Shown here: one piece after another, positions 33,657-45,005 of the stretch
Layout of the letters: each line of letters begins with the position of its first letter
Numbering within the stretch: position 1 is the first letter of the stretch
IMG/VR virus record: IMGVR_UViG_3300014205_000182
Span: 64,001-128,000 of that record
Length of the DNA stretch: 64,000 bases
Reading direction: 5' to 3' (one strand)
DNA from: a virus
Lineage: Duplodnaviria; Caudoviricetes
The notes under the pieces: model-generated
The model's input: the letters and a program-made list of their open reading frames with translations, nothing else
The model's database searches: none
What the model was told of the DNA's origin: nothing
Made by a program: the position numbers and the translations under genes

Positions 33657-33732
33657 GGTGAGGTACGCTAAGTTAAAGCGGCGGGCACTATAAAGCCCGT
33701 GTTTGGTGGTTCATGTCCATCCCTCACCACCA
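33657..33732 (+). tRNA. tRNA-like RNA with 8-nt anticodon loop (ACTATAAA); identity unclear
   Basis: GGTGAGG/CCTCACC-A-CCA, CGCT/AGCG, CGGGC/GCCCG, GGTGG-TTCATGT-CCATC. Confidence 0.8.
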
Positions 33733-33816
33733 TCCGATAGTGATGCTAGCGGTTACTTCTTTGTCTAAGGACGGGTTCTTCGGGACCCGTAAATACCCGC
33801 TGCGATTTTCTTCGGA
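33733..33816 (+). ncRNA. Y-RNA-like element A
   Basis: TCCGA/TCGGA, TAGTGATG, AGCGG/CCGCT, TTACTTC; cUUCGg hairpin insert. Confidence 0.7.
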
Positions 33817-33823
33817 CTAATTT

Positions 33824-39981: not shown

Positions 39982-41207
39982 AGAAAATCAAGCGATGGAG
40001 CGCACAGTACGTTCCCAGCATGCGCGAATGCTTTCAAGCTCGCGACGGCAAGGGCTATTCGTCCGAGGACTTCAAGGCCGGTGAAACGTTTACGCACGCC
40101 CAGAGTTGTATCTGGTTGCTCGGATACTCTGACCTTGGTGTCGCTCTCCTGAACGACGTCGATCCTCACGGCGCCGTCGCTGCATCCGTTCTTGGTGTGA
40201 GCTACGAAGAATGGTTCAAGCGTCGTAAGGAACCTCTCTTTAAGGCGGCTCGTCAGGGCGCCAAGCCATTTACGTTTGGAAAGCCCACCGGCATGTCGTC
40301 GATCAAGCTTGTCTTGTCTAACCGCGCCCAGGGCCAGGATACGCCAGCCGAGGGAGGACCGTCGTGGATTGACGACGGAACGTATACCGGCAAGAAGATT
40401 CGCGGGTACAAGGGTACGAGATTCTGCATTCTGATGAACGGCTCACCTACCTGTGGTGACATCAAGGTAACCAGCTGGGGTCGTCGCGACAAGATCCCGC
40501 CGACTTGCAAGGCTTGTCTGGAATGTGCCGATCACCTCGGCAAGATTTGGCTCAAGCAGTGGCGTGAGAACCAGCCGTACTACGACATCAACGACGGGAT
40601 CGTCAACGAAGGTATGATGATCACTGAGGAAGCTCTGGAGCGTTGGCCGTGGCTCAAGAAGGTCTATCGCCCTGGCACGAAGACCGAACCTGGCCAGGTG
40701 ATGCAACACTGGTCCGGTCGTTTGCGTGGTGGTATGGACTTCACGACGACGTGCAACGGGTGGTTCCAAGTCCTTCTGGCCGAGATCACCAAGCTTGCAT
40801 ACCGCCTCGTCGCTCGTGAGTGCTACGACTCGACAATCAAGGTGCCAACACAGTTGTTCTACAACTCCAACCGTAGTCGTTACGCTGGTATGCAGAGCCC
40901 ACTGTTCCGGTCTACACCGGTTGCACCATTTCACGACGAGTTGTTTATGGAGCACCCGGCGTCGATGCTGGTTGACGGTGCAATGCGCACCAGTGAAGTA
41001 ATGCGTGATGTTTTTGCGTATGTTTGCCCGGACATGGCTGCGAAGGTTGGTGCCGACCCTACCATCATGGAGCGTTGGTACAAGAACGCCGAGCCGGTCT
41101 ACCGCGACGCGGCGGGTAACAAGTGCGAGCCCGACGCGCCGGGCGCACGGCTTTCGCTGTGGAAGCCGAAATTCGGACCGGGCGCTGAGGTTGTTGGAGT
41201 CCAGTGA
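39978..41207 (+). CDS. family A DNA polymerase, C-terminal fragment (motifs A, B, C)
   Basis: RECF..., SEDFKAGE, RQGAKPFTFG, FHDEL; own GGAG ribosome-binding site. Confidence 0.85.
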   Translation: MKKIKRWSAQYVPSMRECFQARDGKGYSSEDFKAGETFTHAQSCIWLLGYSDLGVALLNDVDPHGAVAASVLGVSYEEWFKRRKEPLFKAARQGAKPFTFGKPTGMSSIKLVLSNRAQGQDTPAEGGPSWIDDGTYTGKKIRGYKGTRFCILMNGSPTCGDIKVTSWGRRDKIPPTCKACLECADHLGKIWLKQWRENQPYYDINDGIVNEGMMITEEALERWPWLKKVYRPGTKTEPGQVMQHWSGRLRGGMDFTTTCNGWFQVLLAEITKLAYRLVARECYDSTIKVPTQLFYNSNRSRYAGMQSPLFRSTPVAPFHDELFMEHPASMLVDGAMRTSEVMRDVFAYVCPDMAAKVGADPTIMERWYKNAEPVYRDAAGNKCEPDAPGARLSLWKPKFGPGAEVVGVQ

Positions 41208-41229
41208 GACCTTCGCTGGTTATCTGGGC

Positions 41230-41841
41230 ATGACGTACGAGAGACCAGATAGCCGTCCTCTGCCAGAGTTTCAGCCTTGGCCTAAGATCCCGAGACTTAA
41301 CCGTGAGGTTACCGTTTCGGAGAAGATCGATGGAACAAACGCTGCGGTCTGGATTTCTGATGACGGTACTCAAATCGGTGCCCAGTCTCGGACGAAGTGG
41401 ATCACTCCCAAGGATGATAACTACGGTTTCGCTCGTTGGGTAGAGGAAAACCGCGACGAGCTTCTAAAGCTCGGACCTGGACATCACTTCGGTGAATGGT
41501 GGGGCTCTGGTATCAACCGCCGCTACGGTCTAACCGAGCGTAGGTTCTGGTTGTTCAACACGCATCGTTGGGGTAATCCGGATACACGTCCTGCGTGTGT
41601 GGGCTGCGTTCCAGTTCTTTGGAACGGTAACTACCAGGACATGGATCTTGCTGCAATCATGGCCAAGCTCACGAGTGAGGGTAGCGTGTCTGCGCCCGGG
41701 TTTATGAAGCCTGAGGGAGTTGTAATCTTCCATCACGCCGCAGATCAGTACTTCAAGGTGCTTGCGGAGGGTGACGAGTTACCTAAGGGGATTACTACGT
41801 TGAAGGAACGCGCAACGCTTGCAAAGCTGGAGGGAAAATGA
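41230..41841 (+). CDS. ATP-dependent RNA ligase (Rnl2-like)
   Basis: KIPRL, EKIDGTNA, GEW.G, EGVV. Confidence 0.8.
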   Translation: MTYERPDSRPLPEFQPWPKIPRLNREVTVSEKIDGTNAAVWISDDGTQIGAQSRTKWITPKDDNYGFARWVEENRDELLKLGPGHHFGEWWGSGINRRYGLTERRFWLFNTHRWGNPDTRPACVGCVPVLWNGNYQDMDLAAIMAKLTSEGSVSAPGFMKPEGVVIFHHAADQYFKVLAEGDELPKGITTLKERATLAKLEGK

Positions 41842-42104
41842 GCGATCGAAAGTTCAAGATTGGTGACGTCGTTGTTCTGCGCTCGGGCGGGCCGCAGATG
41901 ACCGTACTTCAATACGAAGTCGACAAATTTAACTACGTTGAGGACGACGAGGAGCCCGGTGTGGAGTGTTGTTGGTTTGCCGAGACAGGCAACGGGTACA
42001 CACCAGACGACATCCACAGTGATGAATTTGCTGAAGAGATTCTGACACTGCTTTACACCGCTGAAGCTTTTGACAACGCCAATAAACACAAGAGGGACCA
42101 GTGA
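41838..42104 (+). CDS. YodC/DUF2158-family protein
   Basis: FKIGDVV.LRSGGP.MTV...C.WF. Confidence 0.8.
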   Translation: MSDRKFKIGDVVVLRSGGPQMTVLQYEVDKFNYVEDDEEPGVECCWFAETGNGYTPDDIHSDEFAEEILTLLYTAEAFDNANKHKRDQ

Positions 42105-42502
42105 GCCTCTGGACACGTGGTATCACATCTCTCGGCTGGATCGGAATCGATCTTGACGGAACTCTAGCCACTTACGGCACTCGCCAGTGGCCAGACATCG
42201 GCGAACCTGTCCCAGCTATCCTAGCAATCGTGAAGGATTACCTAGCTCAAGGGCGCGAAGTTCGCATCATGACGGCACGCGTCGGTAACCTCTTCAAGAA
42301 CCACGTAACTCGTGCAGAGTACGACGACGGAGTTGAGCAGGAGCGTTTAGTTCAGGCTTGGTGCATGAAGCATCTCGGCAGAGAACTACCTGTAACTGCC
42401 GTGAAGGACTATGATATGGACCTTCTTCTGGACGACCGTGCAGTGACTATCGAGAAAAACACTGGTGTGATCTTGACAAAGGATTGGAGCGTGACTAAAT
42501 GA
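42101..42502 (+). CDS. HAD-family (PNKP-type) phosphatase
   Basis: DLDGTLA, TAR, K, DDRA. Confidence 0.8.
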   Translation: MSLWTRGITSLGWIGIDLDGTLATYGTRQWPDIGEPVPAILAIVKDYLAQGREVRIMTARVGNLFKNHVTRAEYDDGVEQERLVQAWCMKHLGRELPVTAVKDYDMDLLLDDRAVTIEKNTGVILTKDWSVTK

Positions 42503-42507
42503 GTGAT

Positions 42508-42741
42508 ATGAACAATTCACAGAAGGCGGTACAGGCTCTGGTTATTCAGCTGCACGAAGCCGGTGAGCCGATTGAAGACATTACCGACGCGTTCTCGTTT
42601 GCTGGTGCCATTGCAGCGGCAAGCCTCAAGCTGCCGCGACGCAACGTCGAAGGCCTTGTCGGTATTCTTGCATCGGTGATGAACAACGAGATCCCTTCGC
42701 ATTATCCGTCCCTTGACGATAAGCCCTTGACAGAGAACTAG
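42508..42741 (+). CDS. hypothetical protein (start 42499 or 42508)
   Basis: TTGACA(42473)-17-TAAATG-6-ATG(42508). Confidence 0.55.
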   Translation: MNNSQKAVQALVIQLHEAGEPIEDITDAFSFAGAIAAASLKLPRRNVEGLVGILASVMNNEIPSHYPSLDDKPLTEN

Positions 42742-42755
42742 TTCGTAGTTAGATT
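42727..42755 (+). promoter_or_regulatory. promoter of ncRNA operon 2 / Ro60
   Basis: TTGACA-17nt-TAGATT; predicted +1 near 42761-42762. Confidence 0.85.
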
Positions 42756-42760
42756 GTTTT

Positions 42761-42825
42761 TGAGACAGTGAAGCTGACGGATACTTCATCCATTAAAGAA
42801 ACCCCGTCAACGTTATATCTTCTCA
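42761..42825 (+). ncRNA. Y-RNA-like element B
   Basis: TGAGA/TCTCA, CAGTGAAG, TGACGG/CCGTCA, ATACTTC...AAAC. Confidence 0.7.
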
Positions 42826-42829
42826 TTTT

Positions 42830-42903
42830 GCCCCTGTAGCTTAATTCTAGAGCACCGGTCATTAGGACCGGGGATCGTGGTGAAAATCCATGCAGGGGCG
42901 CCA
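42830..42903 (+). tRNA. tRNA-like RNA with atypical loop CA-TTA-GG (UUA at anticodon position, A33)
   Basis: GCCCCTG/CAGGGGC-G-CCA, GCTT/GAGC, CCGGT/ACCGG, CGTGG-TGAAAAT-CCATG. Confidence 0.8.
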
Positions 42904-42904
42904 A

Positions 42905-42965
42905 GCGGTAGTGATAGACTCGGATACTTCATGGGGAAATAAACCCGAGTCAACAATATCTCCGC
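42905..42965 (+). ncRNA. Y-RNA-like element C
   Basis: GCGG/CCGC, TAGTGATA, ACTCGG/CCGAGT, ATACTTC...AAAC. Confidence 0.7.
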
Positions 42966-42975
42966 GTTAATTTAT

Positions 42976-43061
42976 GCACCTTATAGCTAGCAGCGGCGTG
43001 AATCACCAGCAGTACTGGTCGCGAAAGCGTAGTCACGACAAAATGAAGGTAGGGTGCGCCA
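42976..43061 (+). ncRNA. CCA-ending multibranch RNA
   Basis: GCACCTTA/TAGGGTGC-G-CCA; CGTGA/TCACG enclosing ACCAG/CTGGT and CGC-GAAA-GCG. Confidence 0.6.
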
Positions 43062-43064
43062 ATT

Positions 43065-43194
43065 TGCCGATAGTGATGAGAGCGGTTACTTCATTGATAA
43101 CGAACGAGGTCCGGGCTGCAAACCCCGGCGCACCTGCAAAGGTGTGTAGCTTAATAGTAGAGCGCGAAAACACCGCAATCGATTATCTTCGGCA
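43065..43194 (+). ncRNA. YrlA-like Y RNA (element D) with circularly permuted tRNA domain
   Basis: same stem motif as A-C; inside, in order: AGGT, T arm CCGGG/CCCGG, acceptor hairpin CGCACCT-GCAA-AGGTGTG, D arm TAGCTTAATAGTAGAGC. Confidence 0.85.
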
Positions 43195-43202
43195 CTTTTC
43201 AA

Positions 43203-43248
43203 GTGCGCCCCTGGACTGAGGGTCGGGGGACGGGGTCCAGGGGCGCAC
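43203..43248 (+). other. 14-bp perfect hairpin with G-rich loop
   Basis: GTGCGCCCCTGGAC/GTCCAGGGGCGCAC; four G-tracts. Confidence 0.7.
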
Positions 43249-43364
43249 ATCCTTTTATGTCCAGCAAGCATTACAACCCTGAAAAACGTGTATGGCGAGG
43301 CCGCTCCTACAAGAACGGCAAGCGTGTTTCTGAACTCAAGTACTCCAACAAAGGTAGTGACACA

Positions 43365-45005
43365 ATGGCAAACATTCTGAATCCAAAGTCTCCGAAGAAG
43401 ATCGACCAAGTCGAAACCCACAAGAACTGGATGGGTGGAACTTCGTTCGACATCAACGATCCAATCATGCGGCTGCGCATCGCAGCTAGCTCGTGCTTCT
43501 TTGGCGAGCCACAGTACTACTCGACGGACCCTGACGACAAGCGCAAGGCGCGTCAGGCATCTATGCCTGCTAACTTCGGGAAGCCGACGACACTGCCGGC
43601 AGCGCAGCTTACCAAGCTTCGTCAGACGCTGACGGCCATCGATCCTCAGGAGTGGCGGTCGATGACGCCGGCTCAGGCGATGGTCTCTGCTATCGACGCA
43701 GCCCTAGACCACGACCCTGAGGCAACGCTCGGCATTGCAGCAGCGCTTCGCCAGGCTGATCACATCCGTACGACGCCCCAGGTTATCCTGGTTCGTGCAG
43801 CACACCACCCCAAGGTTCGTGGTACTGGCATGCTCAAGAAGTATGCTCAGGAGATCATGGCACGTGCAGACGAGCCGGCCGTCGGTCTCGCATACCACAT
43901 CTTTGCCTACGGCAAGGAGAAGCCAATCCCGAACGCCCTGAAGAAGGTGTGGGCACAGCGCCTCGCACGTGCTTCGGAGTACGACCTCGCCAAGTATCGC
44001 CTGGCTGACCACTCGGTCAAGACGGTCGACGTCGTCAACCTCGTTCACGCCAAGTCTCCAGCAATCGGAAAGCTCATGAAGGGTGAACTTACGACCGAGG
44101 GCGAGACGTGGGAGTCCATCATCTCGCAAGGCGGATCTACCAAGGAAAACTGGGAGAAGGCCATCGACAAGATGGGCCACATGGCCCTACTGCGAAACCT
44201 GCGTAACTTCAACGACAAGGGTGTTAACCCGTCGCTGTACACTGGCAAGCTCGTTGGTGGCGCAGCGACCGGTAAGCAGCTTCCGTTCCGCTATTACTCG
44301 GCGTACAAGGCTGTCGCCGGTTCTTCGGCACCGGTGATGGACGCTATCGAGCAGTGTCTGGAGATTTCGCTGGGTAACCTGCCGAAGTTCCCGGGCCGTA
44401 CGATGGCGCTTGCCGACAACTCGGGCTCGGCTCGTGGTGCAACCACGTCCACGATGGGAACGATGCAGGTTTCGACGATTGCTAACTTGACGGCTATCGT
44501 GGCCGGCAAGGTGTCGGACGACGGCTACATCGGTGTCTTCGGTGACACGTTGAACGTCGTGCCGGTGCGCAAGAGGTCGTCGGTGTTCGATCAGTTGAAG
44601 GCTGCCGACGAAGCTGGTGCAGCAGTCGGCGGTTCTACCGAGAACGGTATCTGGCTGTTCTGGGAGAAGGCTATCCGCGAGAAGGAGCATTGGGACAACG
44701 TGTTCGTGATGTCTGATATGCAGGCAGGTCACGGCGGGCTCTATGGTACGCGTGCGTCGATGGCGTCGTACTCTCGTGAGTACGGTTGGCCGGCAGCTAA
44801 CTCGCCGCACATCGACGTCGCCAAGCTCGTCAACACGTATCGCGCCAAGGTCAACCCGAAGGTCAACGTGTTTCTAATCCAGGTCGCCGGTTACCAGGAC
44901 ACCCTGATGCCGGAGTTCTACAACCGTACGTATATCCTCGGCGGATGGGGTGAAGGCGTTCTTCGCTTTGCTGCCGCGATGGCTAATATCGGAGAGGTTA
45001 AGTGA
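43365..45005 (+). CDS. Ro60/Rsr (TROVE + vWA) RNA-binding protein (alternative start 43257)
   Basis: FFGEPQYY, R.DE, MALLRNLRN, LPFRYYSAY, DNSGS MIDAS, SDMQ. Confidence 0.9.
   Translation: MANILNPKSPKKIDQVETHKNWMGGTSFDINDPIMRLRIAASSCFFGEPQYYSTDPDDKRKARQASMPANFGKPTTLPAAQLTKLRQTLTAIDPQEWRSMTPAQAMVSAIDAALDHDPEATLGIAAALRQADHIRTTPQVILVRAAHHPKVRGTGMLKKYAQEIMARADEPAVGLAYHIFAYGKEKPIPNALKKVWAQRLARASEYDLAKYRLADHSVKTVDVVNLVHAKSPAIGKLMKGELTTEGETWESIISQGGSTKENWEKAIDKMGHMALLRNLRNFNDKGVNPSLYTGKLVGGAATGKQLPFRYYSAYKAVAGSSAPVMDAIEQCLEISLGNLPKFPGRTMALADNSGSARGATTSTMGTMQVSTIANLTAIVAGKVSDDGYIGVFGDTLNVVPVRKRSSVFDQLKAADEAGAAVGGSTENGIWLFWEKAIREKEHWDNVFVMSDMQAGHGGLYGTRASMASYSREYGWPAANSPHIDVAKLVNTYRAKVNPKVNVFLIQVAGYQDTLMPEFYNRTYILGGWGEGVLRFAAAMANIGEVK

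What the first reader, a model, noticed from the sequence alone, without database searches (positions are those of the whole stretch)
43065..43194. Circularly permuted tRNA mimic (YrlA architecture) in element D
Seen: the order is variable loop AGGT, T arm (43111-43128), acceptor stem closed by a GCAA tetraloop (43129-43146), then a canonical-looking D arm (43147-43163). The anticodon stem is reduced to CG/CG and continues into the shared stem. Known: this permutation defines YrlA Y RNAs. It cannot be aminoacylated, and it anchors the identification of A-C as Y-like RNAs.
Basis: partly seen in the sequence, partly recalled or inferred. Interest (0 to 1): 0.75.

Follow-up and report, generated by a model that had tools for sequence, protein, structure and literature searches.

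The report
Phage Y RNA with rotated tRNA
The 130 bases just upstream of a phage Ro60-like (Rsr) gene encode a Y RNA whose centre folds like a tRNA with its arms in rotated order; this kind of RNA (YrlA) has been known since 2014, and this copy belongs to a divergent, uncurated phage branch of it.

Summary
At 43065-43197 (+) the order is scaffold stem, UUAC motif, small hairpin, CG, AGGU, T arm, a 7-bp acceptor stem closed by GCAA, UA, D arm, G, CG, linker, scaffold stem. It is not chance. A covariance model built only from 18 relatives upstream of other phage Rsr genes hits it full length (69.8 bits, E 1.6e-14). In those relatives 24 of 29 pairs show compensatory changes.

The curated Rfam YrlA model scores it only 14.9 bits (cut-off 69). 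The canonical GNCGAA Rsr motif is absent; G-N-AGUGA and GG(U/A)UACUUC take its place.

The D and T loops are not canonical. They match a G55/A18 elbow variant used by real tRNAs of this phage, plus one extra T-loop base.

In 18 of 32 relatives, and more weakly here, the hairpin beside the 2-bp stem completes a 5-bp, 7-nt-loop anticodon-arm look-alike.

Verdict: a YrlA-type Y RNA of a divergent phage branch, most likely bound by the adjacent Rsr. Expression and binding are untested. Other first-stage notes of this scan had already flagged this same stretch.

The parts
43065..43197 (+). Element D: whole YrlA-type Y RNA (scaffold plus rotated tRNA-like module)
   Evidence: R1 hit, 69.8 bits, E 1.6e-14, model positions 1-137; MFE fold
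43066..43073 (+). Outer scaffold stem, 5' strand (G66-A70, bulged U71, A72-G73). It pairs with 43187-43193. The family motif AGUGA is at 43072-43076.
   Evidence: R1 alignment; this helix covaries in relatives; motif frequencies
43187..43193 (+). Outer scaffold stem, 3' strand (CUUCGGC)
43082..43085 (+). Inner scaffold stem ('stem 3') GCGG, pairs with CCGC at 43173-43176
   Evidence: all 6 pairs of this helix have compensatory changes in relatives
43086..43092 (+). UUACUUC motif, the YUAY motif of YrlA and the most conserved block of the phage branch
   Evidence: column counts U 37/37, A 33, C 37, U 32, U 35, C 37; YUAY is described in PMC4201824
43090..43104 (+). Small hairpin: UUC/GAA, an A.C mismatch and the loop UUGAUAA. 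It corresponds to the 'V' stem-loop of YrlA and is read here as a weak anticodon-arm look-alike.
   Evidence: in D the MFE fold prefers ACUUC/GAGGU instead
43105..43106 (+). 3' strand of the 2-bp anticodon-stem remnant (CG), pairs with 43165-43166
   Evidence: 27 of 32 relatives keep at least 2 bp here against 10.7 +/- 2.2 in shuffles
43107..43110 (+). Variable loop AGGU. U43110 is position 48, the Levitt partner of A43154.
   Evidence: the 15:48 pair is A:U in 17 and G:C in 13 of 32
43111..43128 (+). T arm: 5-bp stem, 8-nt loop CUGCAAAC (UGCAA core with G at position 55, plus one extra C)
43129..43146 (+). Acceptor-stem mimic: 7 bp closed by the GNRA tetraloop GCAA
   Evidence: all seven pairs of this stem have compensatory changes and 94-100% of cells paired in relatives
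43147..43163 (+). UA (positions 8 and 9) plus D arm GCUU/GAGC with loop AAUAGUA (A14, A15, A18, G19)
43164..43172 (+). G26, CG (5' strand of the anticodon-stem remnant) and the A-rich linker back to stem 3
43365..45005 (+). Rsr/Ro60-like TROVE protein gene, the presumed protein partner. The open frame reaches back to ATG 43257 and GTG 43203, but homologue N-termini fit ATG 43365.
   Evidence: Pfam TROVE E 5e-13; PHROG 850; PDB TROVE proteins E 1.5e-14; N-terminal alignment
42727..42755 (+). Promoter-like site TTGACA-17-TAGATT just before the first Y-like hairpin of the array
   Evidence: 10 of 12 matches; consensus match only
42760..42829 (+).
   Evidence: R1 31.9 bits, E 1.3e-5
42903..42970 (+).
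   Evidence: R1 28.8 bits, E 7e-5
33732..33820 (+).
   Evidence: R1 33.8 bits, E 4.8e-6

Best explanation
Element D is a non-coding Y RNA of the YrlA type. It is the last and largest unit of a promoter-driven array of Y-like RNAs just upstream of the phage's own Rsr (Ro60-like) gene.

Its two ends pair into a long bulged scaffold stem that carries the branch-wide motifs G-N-AGUGA and GG(U/A)UACUUC. This scaffold is inferred to be the Rsr-binding part.

Its centre folds into a rotated tRNA. A short anticodon-stem remnant leads through a 4-nt variable loop into the T arm. A 7-bp acceptor stem closed by a GCAA loop follows, then UA, then the D arm. The A15:U48 Levitt pair and an A18/G55-type elbow would hold this in a tRNA-like L shape.

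By analogy with D. radiodurans Yrn1 and Salmonella YrlA, the RNA would sit on the Rsr ring. It would gate that ring or tether it to a tRNA-recognising or RNA-degrading partner during infection. The RNA ligase and phosphatase genes next door point to tRNA/RNA surveillance or repair.

Shown here: the sequence, the fold, homology and covariation, and the genomic linkage. Inferred: expression, Rsr binding, the 3-D fold and the role.
For: - R1, built from relatives only, hits D full length at 69.8 bits, E 1.6e-14.
- In 89 sources R1 gives 137 hits, all on the Rsr strand and nearly all within about 700 nt upstream of Rsr.
- Helices covary: 93.2% of cells paired against 66.2% in shuffles and 42-52% when partners are slid; 24 of 29 pairs have compensatory changes.
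- The Levitt pair is kept in 30 of 32 and the short anticodon stem in 27 of 32. D fits both.
- Rfam YrlA matches relatives at 30-52 bits, E 1e-9 to 6e-3, often over the whole model. It matches D over model positions 30-81.
- The downstream gene is TROVE/Rsr.
- D's D loop and T loop follow the UGC/AG elbow class found in 8 of 8 such tRNAs of this and related phages.
- Overlapping ORFs have no Pfam family.
- Literature: YrlA RNAs lie within 4 kb of rsr on the same strand and were reported in 22 phages (PMC4201824). A crystal structure shows the tRNA-like L shape (10.1101/312249).
Against: - There are no expression data.
- The curated Rfam YrlA cut-off is missed by a wide margin (14.9 against 69 bits).
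- The canonical GNCGAAN0-1G Rsr motif is absent in 0 of 37, so Rsr binding rests on linkage alone.
- The T loop has 8 nt, the only such case among the 37 aligned elements.
- When the module is rotated back in silico, ARAGORN of 32 relatives a tRNA but not D.
- The nearest-neighbour energy model prefers other pairings in the scaffold's internal loop and in the V region (-47.1 against -31.1 kcal/mol).
Confidence: 0.82

Rival explanations
1. D is further processed. RNase P opens the 7-bp acceptor hairpin at the GCAA loop, the new 3' end is trimmed and given CCA, and the result is a two-piece tRNA-like RNA. That RNA could be protected from exonucleases or even charged. This adds to the Y RNA reading rather than excluding it.
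For: The acceptor stem is exactly 7 bp and is followed by G then CAA. The two neighbouring tRNA-like elements end in G-CCA. M. smegmatis YrlA, with a 7-bp stem, is cut by RNase P and receives CCA (PMC4201824; 10.1101/312249). Most relatives also have 7-8 bp acceptor stems.
Against: Stable GNRA and UUCG tetraloops cap many acceptor stems in this branch, which suggests a closed stem is intended. No cleavage was seen in Salmonella YrlA or in Yrn1 (PMC4201824). Nothing here tests cleavage.
Confidence: 0.15
2. D is not a free-standing RNA. It is part of a cis-acting leader of rsr, where Rsr or a tRNA-binding factor binds the leader and controls read-through of the hairpin at 43203-43248.
For: D lies directly upstream of rsr on the same strand. 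A 14-bp hairpin and a short U run follow it, before the rsr start.
Against: In several relatives the same elements lie downstream of rsr (L012 4134-4294, L083 4190-4320, L057 4319-4459, L112 4233-4367). Copies also occur far from rsr (33732-33820 in the window; G000:C1:12931-13008). Known YrlA RNAs are stable trans-acting RNAs (PMC4201824).
Confidence: 0.06
3. D is a decaying copy: a once canonical YrlA-like gene that is losing its tRNA mimicry and no longer functions.
For: It has the only 8-nt T loop among the 37 aligned elements. Its R1 score lies in the lower third of the tRNA-module-bearing hits, about 30 to 50 bits below the best members. The small hairpin is weak. ARAGORN fails after rotating the module back.
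Against: Every helix is intact, with only G-U wobbles. The Levitt pair and the short anticodon stem are kept. The D-loop and T-loop changes are the coordinated G55/A18 pattern of working phage tRNAs, not random decay. D is the only long-form copy in this 90%-complete genome.
Confidence: 0.07
4. Chance: an intergenic cluster of hairpins that happens to resemble tRNA arms.
For: A loose structural descriptor finds about 6-8 distinct such arrangements per strand in 64 kb.
Against: R1 gives E 1.6e-14 from a model that never saw the window. Strand and position are tied to rsr in 137 of 137 hits.
Confidence: 0.01

Closest known systems
YrlA (Rfam RF02553; Chen et al. 2014, PMC4201824; structure of the Salmonella tRNA-like domain, PDB 6CU1, bioRxiv 10.1101/312249)
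   Same: Encoded next to rsr on the same strand. The arm order is V region, T arm, closed acceptor stem, UA, D arm. It has a YUAY motif, a Levitt 15:48 pair that switches between G:C and A:U, and a short anticodon stem that leads into a long terminal stem. YrlA was already reported in 22 phages.
   Different: - D scores 14.9 bits against a cut-off of 69. Relatives score 30-52 bits.
- There is no GNCGAAN0-1G motif. G-N-AGUGA with a bulged pyrimidine, and GG(U/A)UACUUC, are conserved instead.
- An extra outer stem is present.
- In D the T loop is UGCAA-type with 8 nt and the D loop lacks GG, so TruB cannot make pseudouridine 55.
- Short paralogues with the same scaffold and no tRNA module occur in the same array.
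Mycobacterium smegmatis YrlA
   Same: A 7-bp acceptor stem, as in D.
   Different: That RNA is shown to be cut by RNase P and to receive CCA. Nothing is known for D, whose stem is capped by a stable GNRA tetraloop.
Salmonella YrlB and other small Rsr-bound Y RNAs
   Same: The short elements A-C of this phage are, like YrlB, Y RNAs without a tRNA-like module encoded beside a YrlA-type RNA.
   Different: Here the short and long forms share one clearly homologous scaffold. According to PMC4201824, YrlB shares only the short GNCGAA motif with YrlA.
Circularly permuted tRNA genes (Cyanidioschyzon merolae and some archaea; cited in 10.1101/312249)
   Same: A closed acceptor stem and ends that meet in the anticodon arm.
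   Different: Those are precursors that are spliced into working tRNAs. D has no intact anticodon stem to ligate, and bacteria are not known to have the splicing endonuclease.
Metazoan Y RNAs (Rfam RF00019) and D. radiodurans Yrn1
   Same: A Ro60-bound RNA with a long terminal stem that bears a bulged pyrimidine on the 5' strand.
   Different: No Rfam Y_RNA match at E up to 10. Metazoan Y RNAs lack the tRNA-like module. Yrn1 has its arms in another orientation (PMC4201824).

Membership tests
YrlA (RF02553 / Chen et al. 2014) | Encoded within 4 kb of a Ro60/Rsr (TROVE) gene on the same strand | tested here: met
   D ends at 43197. The TROVE ORF starts at 43257 or 43365 on the + strand.
YrlA (RF02553 / Chen et al. 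2014) | T stem-loop, then acceptor-like stem-loop, then D stem-loop, with 0-nt and 2-nt (UA) junctions | tested here: met
YrlA (RF02553 / Chen et al. 2014) | Levitt pair 15:48 kept as G:C or A:U | tested here: met
   A43154:U43110. Relatives have 17 A:U and 13 G:C of 32.
YrlA (RF02553 / Chen et al. 2014) | Short anticodon stem formed by the bases before the variable loop and after the D arm | tested here: met
   CG/CG in D. 27 of 32 relatives have at least 2 bp against 10.7 +/- 2.2 in shuffles. The Rfam structure line has the same helix.
YrlA (RF02553 / Chen et al. 2014) | Conserved YUAY before the V region | tested here: met
   UUAC at 43086-43089. These columns are nearly invariant.
YrlA (RF02553 / Chen et al. 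2014) | GNCGAAN0-1G motif near the 5' end (proposed Rsr contact) | tested here: not met
   0 of 37 elements of this branch have it. D has GCCGAUAG, one mismatch, in a stem whose sequence is not conserved in the branch.
YrlA (RF02553 / Chen et al. 2014) | Nearly invariant T loop (UUCGA) and D loop (GG) forming the elbow | tested here: not met
   In D the T loop is CUGCAAAC and the D loop AAUAGUA. All but four of the other 36 aligned elements have the UUC[GA]A T loop, and nearly all that keep a D arm have the GG D loop. D follows the G55/A18 class of real phage tRNAs.
YrlA (RF02553 / Chen et al. 2014) | Score at or above Rfam's gathering cut-off (69 bits) | tested here: not met
   14.9 bits, E 4.4, model positions 30-81 only. 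Relatives score 30-52 bits.
YrlA (RF02553 / Chen et al. 2014) | Bound by Rsr in vivo; carries tRNA modifications (dihydrouridine, pseudouridine 55) | not testable with these tools
   Needs an Rsr pull-down and modification mapping. Pseudouridine 55 is impossible because position 55 is G.
Phage Rsr-linked Y-like scaffold RNAs (model R1, defined here) | Full-length match to R1: outer stem, G-N-AGUGA, stem 3, GG(U/A)UACUUC, T/acceptor/D module | tested here: met
   69.8 bits, E 1.6e-14, positions 1-137. The model did not include the window.
tRNA (RF00005 / ARAGORN) | Cloverleaf in the normal order, or after rotating the module back | tested here: not met
   No tRNA call at D. After rotating back, ARAGORN of 32 relatives but not D. 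ARAGORN is lenient: 36% of shuffled controls are also called.

The most novel reading that the evidence does not exclude
In this phage branch the module may be a complete tRNA look-alike rather than a tRNA lacking its anticodon arm. The hairpin that the literature calls 'V' abuts the 2-bp anticodon-stem remnant, so the two stack into a 5-bp stem with a 7-nt loop of consensus C-U-N-N-N-A-A. The Y scaffold leaves through a break in the 5' strand of that stem. Such an RNA, held on phage Rsr and encoded beside an RNA ligase and a phosphatase, could act as a decoy or damage sensor for host anticodon nucleases. The elbow would be kept by a G55/A18 variant that escapes TruB.
Probability: 0.15. Interest if true: 0.75.

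Novelty: new variant of a known kind. Interest (0 to 1): 0.42.

Why it matters
What the tRNA-like domain of bacterial Y RNAs is for has been open since 2014. This locus adds three things.

1. A large, covarying phage branch: 137 elements in 89 loci, often in arrays of up to five, with its own scaffold motifs. Rfam's cut-off misses it.
2. Cultured phages that carry it and could be used for experiments: Caulobacter phage CcrColossus, Xanthomonas phage Tabio and Bacillus phage G. The elements are unannotated in their records.
3. Testable structural ideas: an anticodon-arm look-alike built by stacking, and a G55/A18 elbow.

For element D itself the result is mainly a confirmation. It is a divergent member of a known class, not a new kind of RNA.

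Tried and rejected
- Rfam at gathering cut-offs on the whole window found nothing. Even the 47.5-bit tRNA at 42830 was lost to the filters.
- Rfam YrlA on D: 14.9 bits, not usable as proof.
- Rfam Y_RNA (RF00019): no match at E up to 10.
- blastn of 42700-43300 against the phage collection: no match.
- A structure-only descriptor is too unspecific to show significance.
- Sequencing runs: no RNA holder listed. The only full holder is a landfill metagenome that may be the source.
- ARAGORN on the rotated-back module: negative for D, and only a modest enrichment over shuffles for relatives (66% against 36%). I give it little weight.
- The energy model does not favour the 2-bp anticodon stem in D. 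I kept that stem on comparative grounds.
- Overlapping ORFs 42974-43219 (+), 43086-43421 (-) and 42749-42904 (-): no Pfam family.
- The supplementary tables of PMC4201824 (list of the 22 phages) and the review PMC10870794 are not held. I could not check whether CcrColossus or phage G were already listed there.
- I recalled from memory a resemblance of AGUGA...GUUACUUC to human Y1 RNA. I did not pursue it, since no tool supported it.

Full report
**What is there.** The window is bases 64001-128000 of a 143.7-kb IMG/VR phage record. Positions 43065-43197 on the + strand read, in order:
- an outer stem, 43066-43073 with 43187-43193, with U43071 bulged, and the AGUGA block;
- an inner stem, GCGG 43082-43085 with CCGC 43173-43176;
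- the UUACUUC block;
- a small hairpin, UUC/GAA around UUGAUAA;
- CG, then AGGU;
- a T arm, 43111-43128;
- a 7-bp hairpin closed by GCAA, 43129-43146;
- UA;
- a D arm, 43149-43163;
- G, then CG;
- an A-rich linker back to the inner stem.

The MFE fold recovers the T, acceptor and D hairpins and the enclosing stems (z -3.4).

**Is it more than chance?** Structure alone is not convincing. A loose T/acceptor/D descriptor finds about 6-8 distinct places per strand in the window.

The downstream ORF is a TROVE (Ro60/Rsr) protein. I fetched 106 loci that encode its relatives at 47-65% identity from viral and metagenome contigs; 90 of them are unique. The block [AT]TAC[TC]TC is concentrated in the 600 nt upstream of their rsr genes. 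About 25 nt after it, many loci carry a T arm, a hairpin and a D arm in the same order.

I aligned 18 such elements, leaving the window out. RNAalifold predicts 29 pairs, 24 of them with compensatory changes. With controls, 93.2% of cells are paired, against 66.2% after shuffling and 42-52% when the partners are slid. The covariation score is 0.725 against 0.21.

The covariance model R1 built from this alignment hits 43065-43197 over its whole length at 69.8 bits, E 1.6e-14. Over 89 sources it gives 137 hits. All are on the rsr strand and nearly all lie just upstream of rsr. About 32 are long forms with the complete tRNA-like module and about 100 are short forms.

**Details of the tRNA likeness.**
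- *Levitt pair.* In 32 long forms the 15:48 pair is A:U in 17 and G:C in 13. D has A43154:U43110.
27 of 32 keep at least two pairs (CU/AG, CC/GG, CG/CG, GC/GC, up to 5-6 bp), against 10.7 +/- 2.2 in shuffles. The Rfam YrlA structure line contains the same helix.
- *Elbow.* D's loops are not canonical. The T loop is CUGCAAAC, the only 8-nt T loop among the 37 aligned elements. The D loop is AAUAGUA, without GG. This is not simple decay. Among 185 ARAGORN tRNAs of this phage and its relatives, T loops that start UGC (G at position 55) always go with a D loop that has AG and no GG (8 of 8). UUC loops go with GG in 152 of 161 (Fisher p 4.6e-10). One tRNA-Ile (L034) has AAAUAGUA and UGCAAAU, almost the same as D. 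So D carries a recognised elbow variant plus one extra base. Pseudouridine 55 cannot form.
- *Anticodon-arm look-alike.* The hairpin just 5' of the 2-bp stem, the 'V' stem-loop of Chen et al., abuts that stem. In 18 of 32 long forms the two together make 5 bp and a 7-nt loop with consensus C-U-N-N-N-A-A, like an anticodon loop. Shuffles give 3.3 +/- 1.7. D has a weaker version: UUC/GAA, an A.C mismatch and UUGAUAA. The energy model prefers ACUUC/GAGGU there.
- *Rotating the module back.* ARAGORN then of 32 relatives a tRNA but not D. The control shows that ARAGORN is lenient.

**Relation to the known family.** Chen et al. 2014 (PMC4201824) defined YrlA RNAs by several features:
- a position within 4 kb of rsr on the same strand;
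- a GNCGAAN0-1G motif;
- a YUAY motif;
- V, T, AS and D stem-loops;
- a covarying Levitt pair.

They reported YrlA in 254 bacteria and 22 phages. Wang et al. (10.1101/312249) solved the Salmonella domain and describe YrlA RNAs as resembling circularly permuted tRNAs with a closed acceptor stem.

D meets the linkage, the arm order, the junctions, YUAY, the Levitt pair and the short anticodon stem. It does not meet three features:
- the Rfam cut-off (14.9 against 69 bits);
- the GNCGAA motif (0 of 37);
- the nearly invariant T and D loops.

Its relatives match RF02553 significantly but below the cut-off (30-52 bits, E 1e-9 to 6e-3, often full length). I therefore file D as a YrlA-type Y RNA of a divergent phage branch, not as a member by the curated definition.

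The branch also occurs, unannotated, in cultured phages: Xanthomonas phage Tabio (101.9 bits), Bacillus phage G (84.4 bits) and Caulobacter phage CcrColossus (five to six elements).

**Context and likely working.**
- A promoter-like site, TTGACA-17-TAGATT at 42727-42755, precedes the array.
- The array runs: short Y-like, tRNA-like with UUA, short Y-like, CCA-ended tRNA-like, D, a 14-bp hairpin at 43203-43248, then rsr.
- Upstream lie an RNA ligase gene and a PNKP-phosphatase-like gene.
- The phage carries 30 tRNA genes elsewhere in its genome.

By analogy with Yrn1 and YrlA, D most likely binds phage Rsr through its scaffold and presents a tRNA-shaped domain to a tRNA-recognising partner, in an RNA surveillance or repair setting. 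Iyer et al. 2021 (PMC7824862) note TROVE proteins with a tRNA-like partner in jumbo-phage RNA-repair sets. Expression, Rsr binding and the role are inferred, not shown.

The rivals are further RNase P processing, a cis-acting leader of rsr, a decaying copy, and chance. They are weighed in their own section. Chance is excluded.

**Verdict.** D is a new variant of a known kind, of moderate interest.

Noticed in passing
window 42830-42903 (+): A cloverleaf with encoded CCA and the triplet UUA in the loop CAUUAGG, where A replaces U33. The Rfam tRNA model gives 47.5 bits in E-value mode, but the hit was missed at gathering settings on the whole window. Its D loop (AAUUCUA) and T loop (UGAAAAU) could form a swapped elbow (C18:G55, U19:A56). 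It is probably a non-decoding spacer or processing signal.
   Followed up: partly
window 42976-43062 (+) and 33657-33731 (+): Two more CCA-ended elements with good 7-bp acceptor stems but no normal cloverleaf. A Y-like scaffold follows each within 0-3 nt. This suggests that RNase P and 3'-end processing punctuate the array.
   Followed up: partly
G000:C1:12931-13008 (-), outside the window: A fifth Y-like scaffold (R1 31.7 bits) lies inside the phage's tRNA cluster.
   Followed up: no
phage tRNAs, G000:C1:4391-17393, and tRNAs of related loci: The tRNA elbow covaries. T loops that start UGC (G55) always go with D loops that have AG and no GG (8 of 8). UUC goes with GG in 152 of 161. These tRNAs cannot carry pseudouridine 55.
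   Followed up: partly
L002:2070-2195 and L002:2610-2750: The same scaffold (GAGUUACUUC with a matching 3' strand) carries other cargo. One has a normal-order tRNA-Tyr-like cloverleaf (Rfam tRNA 49.9 bits at 2633-2703). The other has D arm, anticodon arm and T arm followed by a GAAA-capped hairpin (tRNA model positions 6-65, 56.4 bits). The scaffold appears to accept tRNA modules in several topologies.
   Followed up: partly
L120:1609-1776 (Caulobacter phage CcrColossus): The annotated tRNA-Gln (L120:1613-1680) lies inside an R1 hit of 73.7 bits. It may be the tRNA-like module of a Y RNA rather than a tRNA gene. The intergenic space 1437-2398 holds five R1 hits and is otherwise unannotated.
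   Followed up: no
window 43203-43248 (+): A perfect 14-bp G+C-rich hairpin followed by AUCCUUUU lies between D and the rsr coding region. It may be a terminator of the Y RNA array or a regulator of rsr. The rsr start is more likely ATG 43365 than ATG 43257 or GTG 43203.
   Followed up: partly
window 41005-42502 (+): An RNA ligase gene (Pfam PF09414, PHROG 548) and a small HAD/PNKP-phosphatase-like gene lie directly upstream of the Y RNA array. Together with Rsr they form an RNA-repair-like neighbourhood.
   Followed up: partly
L017:1423-1763: A phage-encoded tmRNA (Rfam 77.8 bits) lies about 400 nt upstream of the Y RNA array of a related phage.
   Followed up: no
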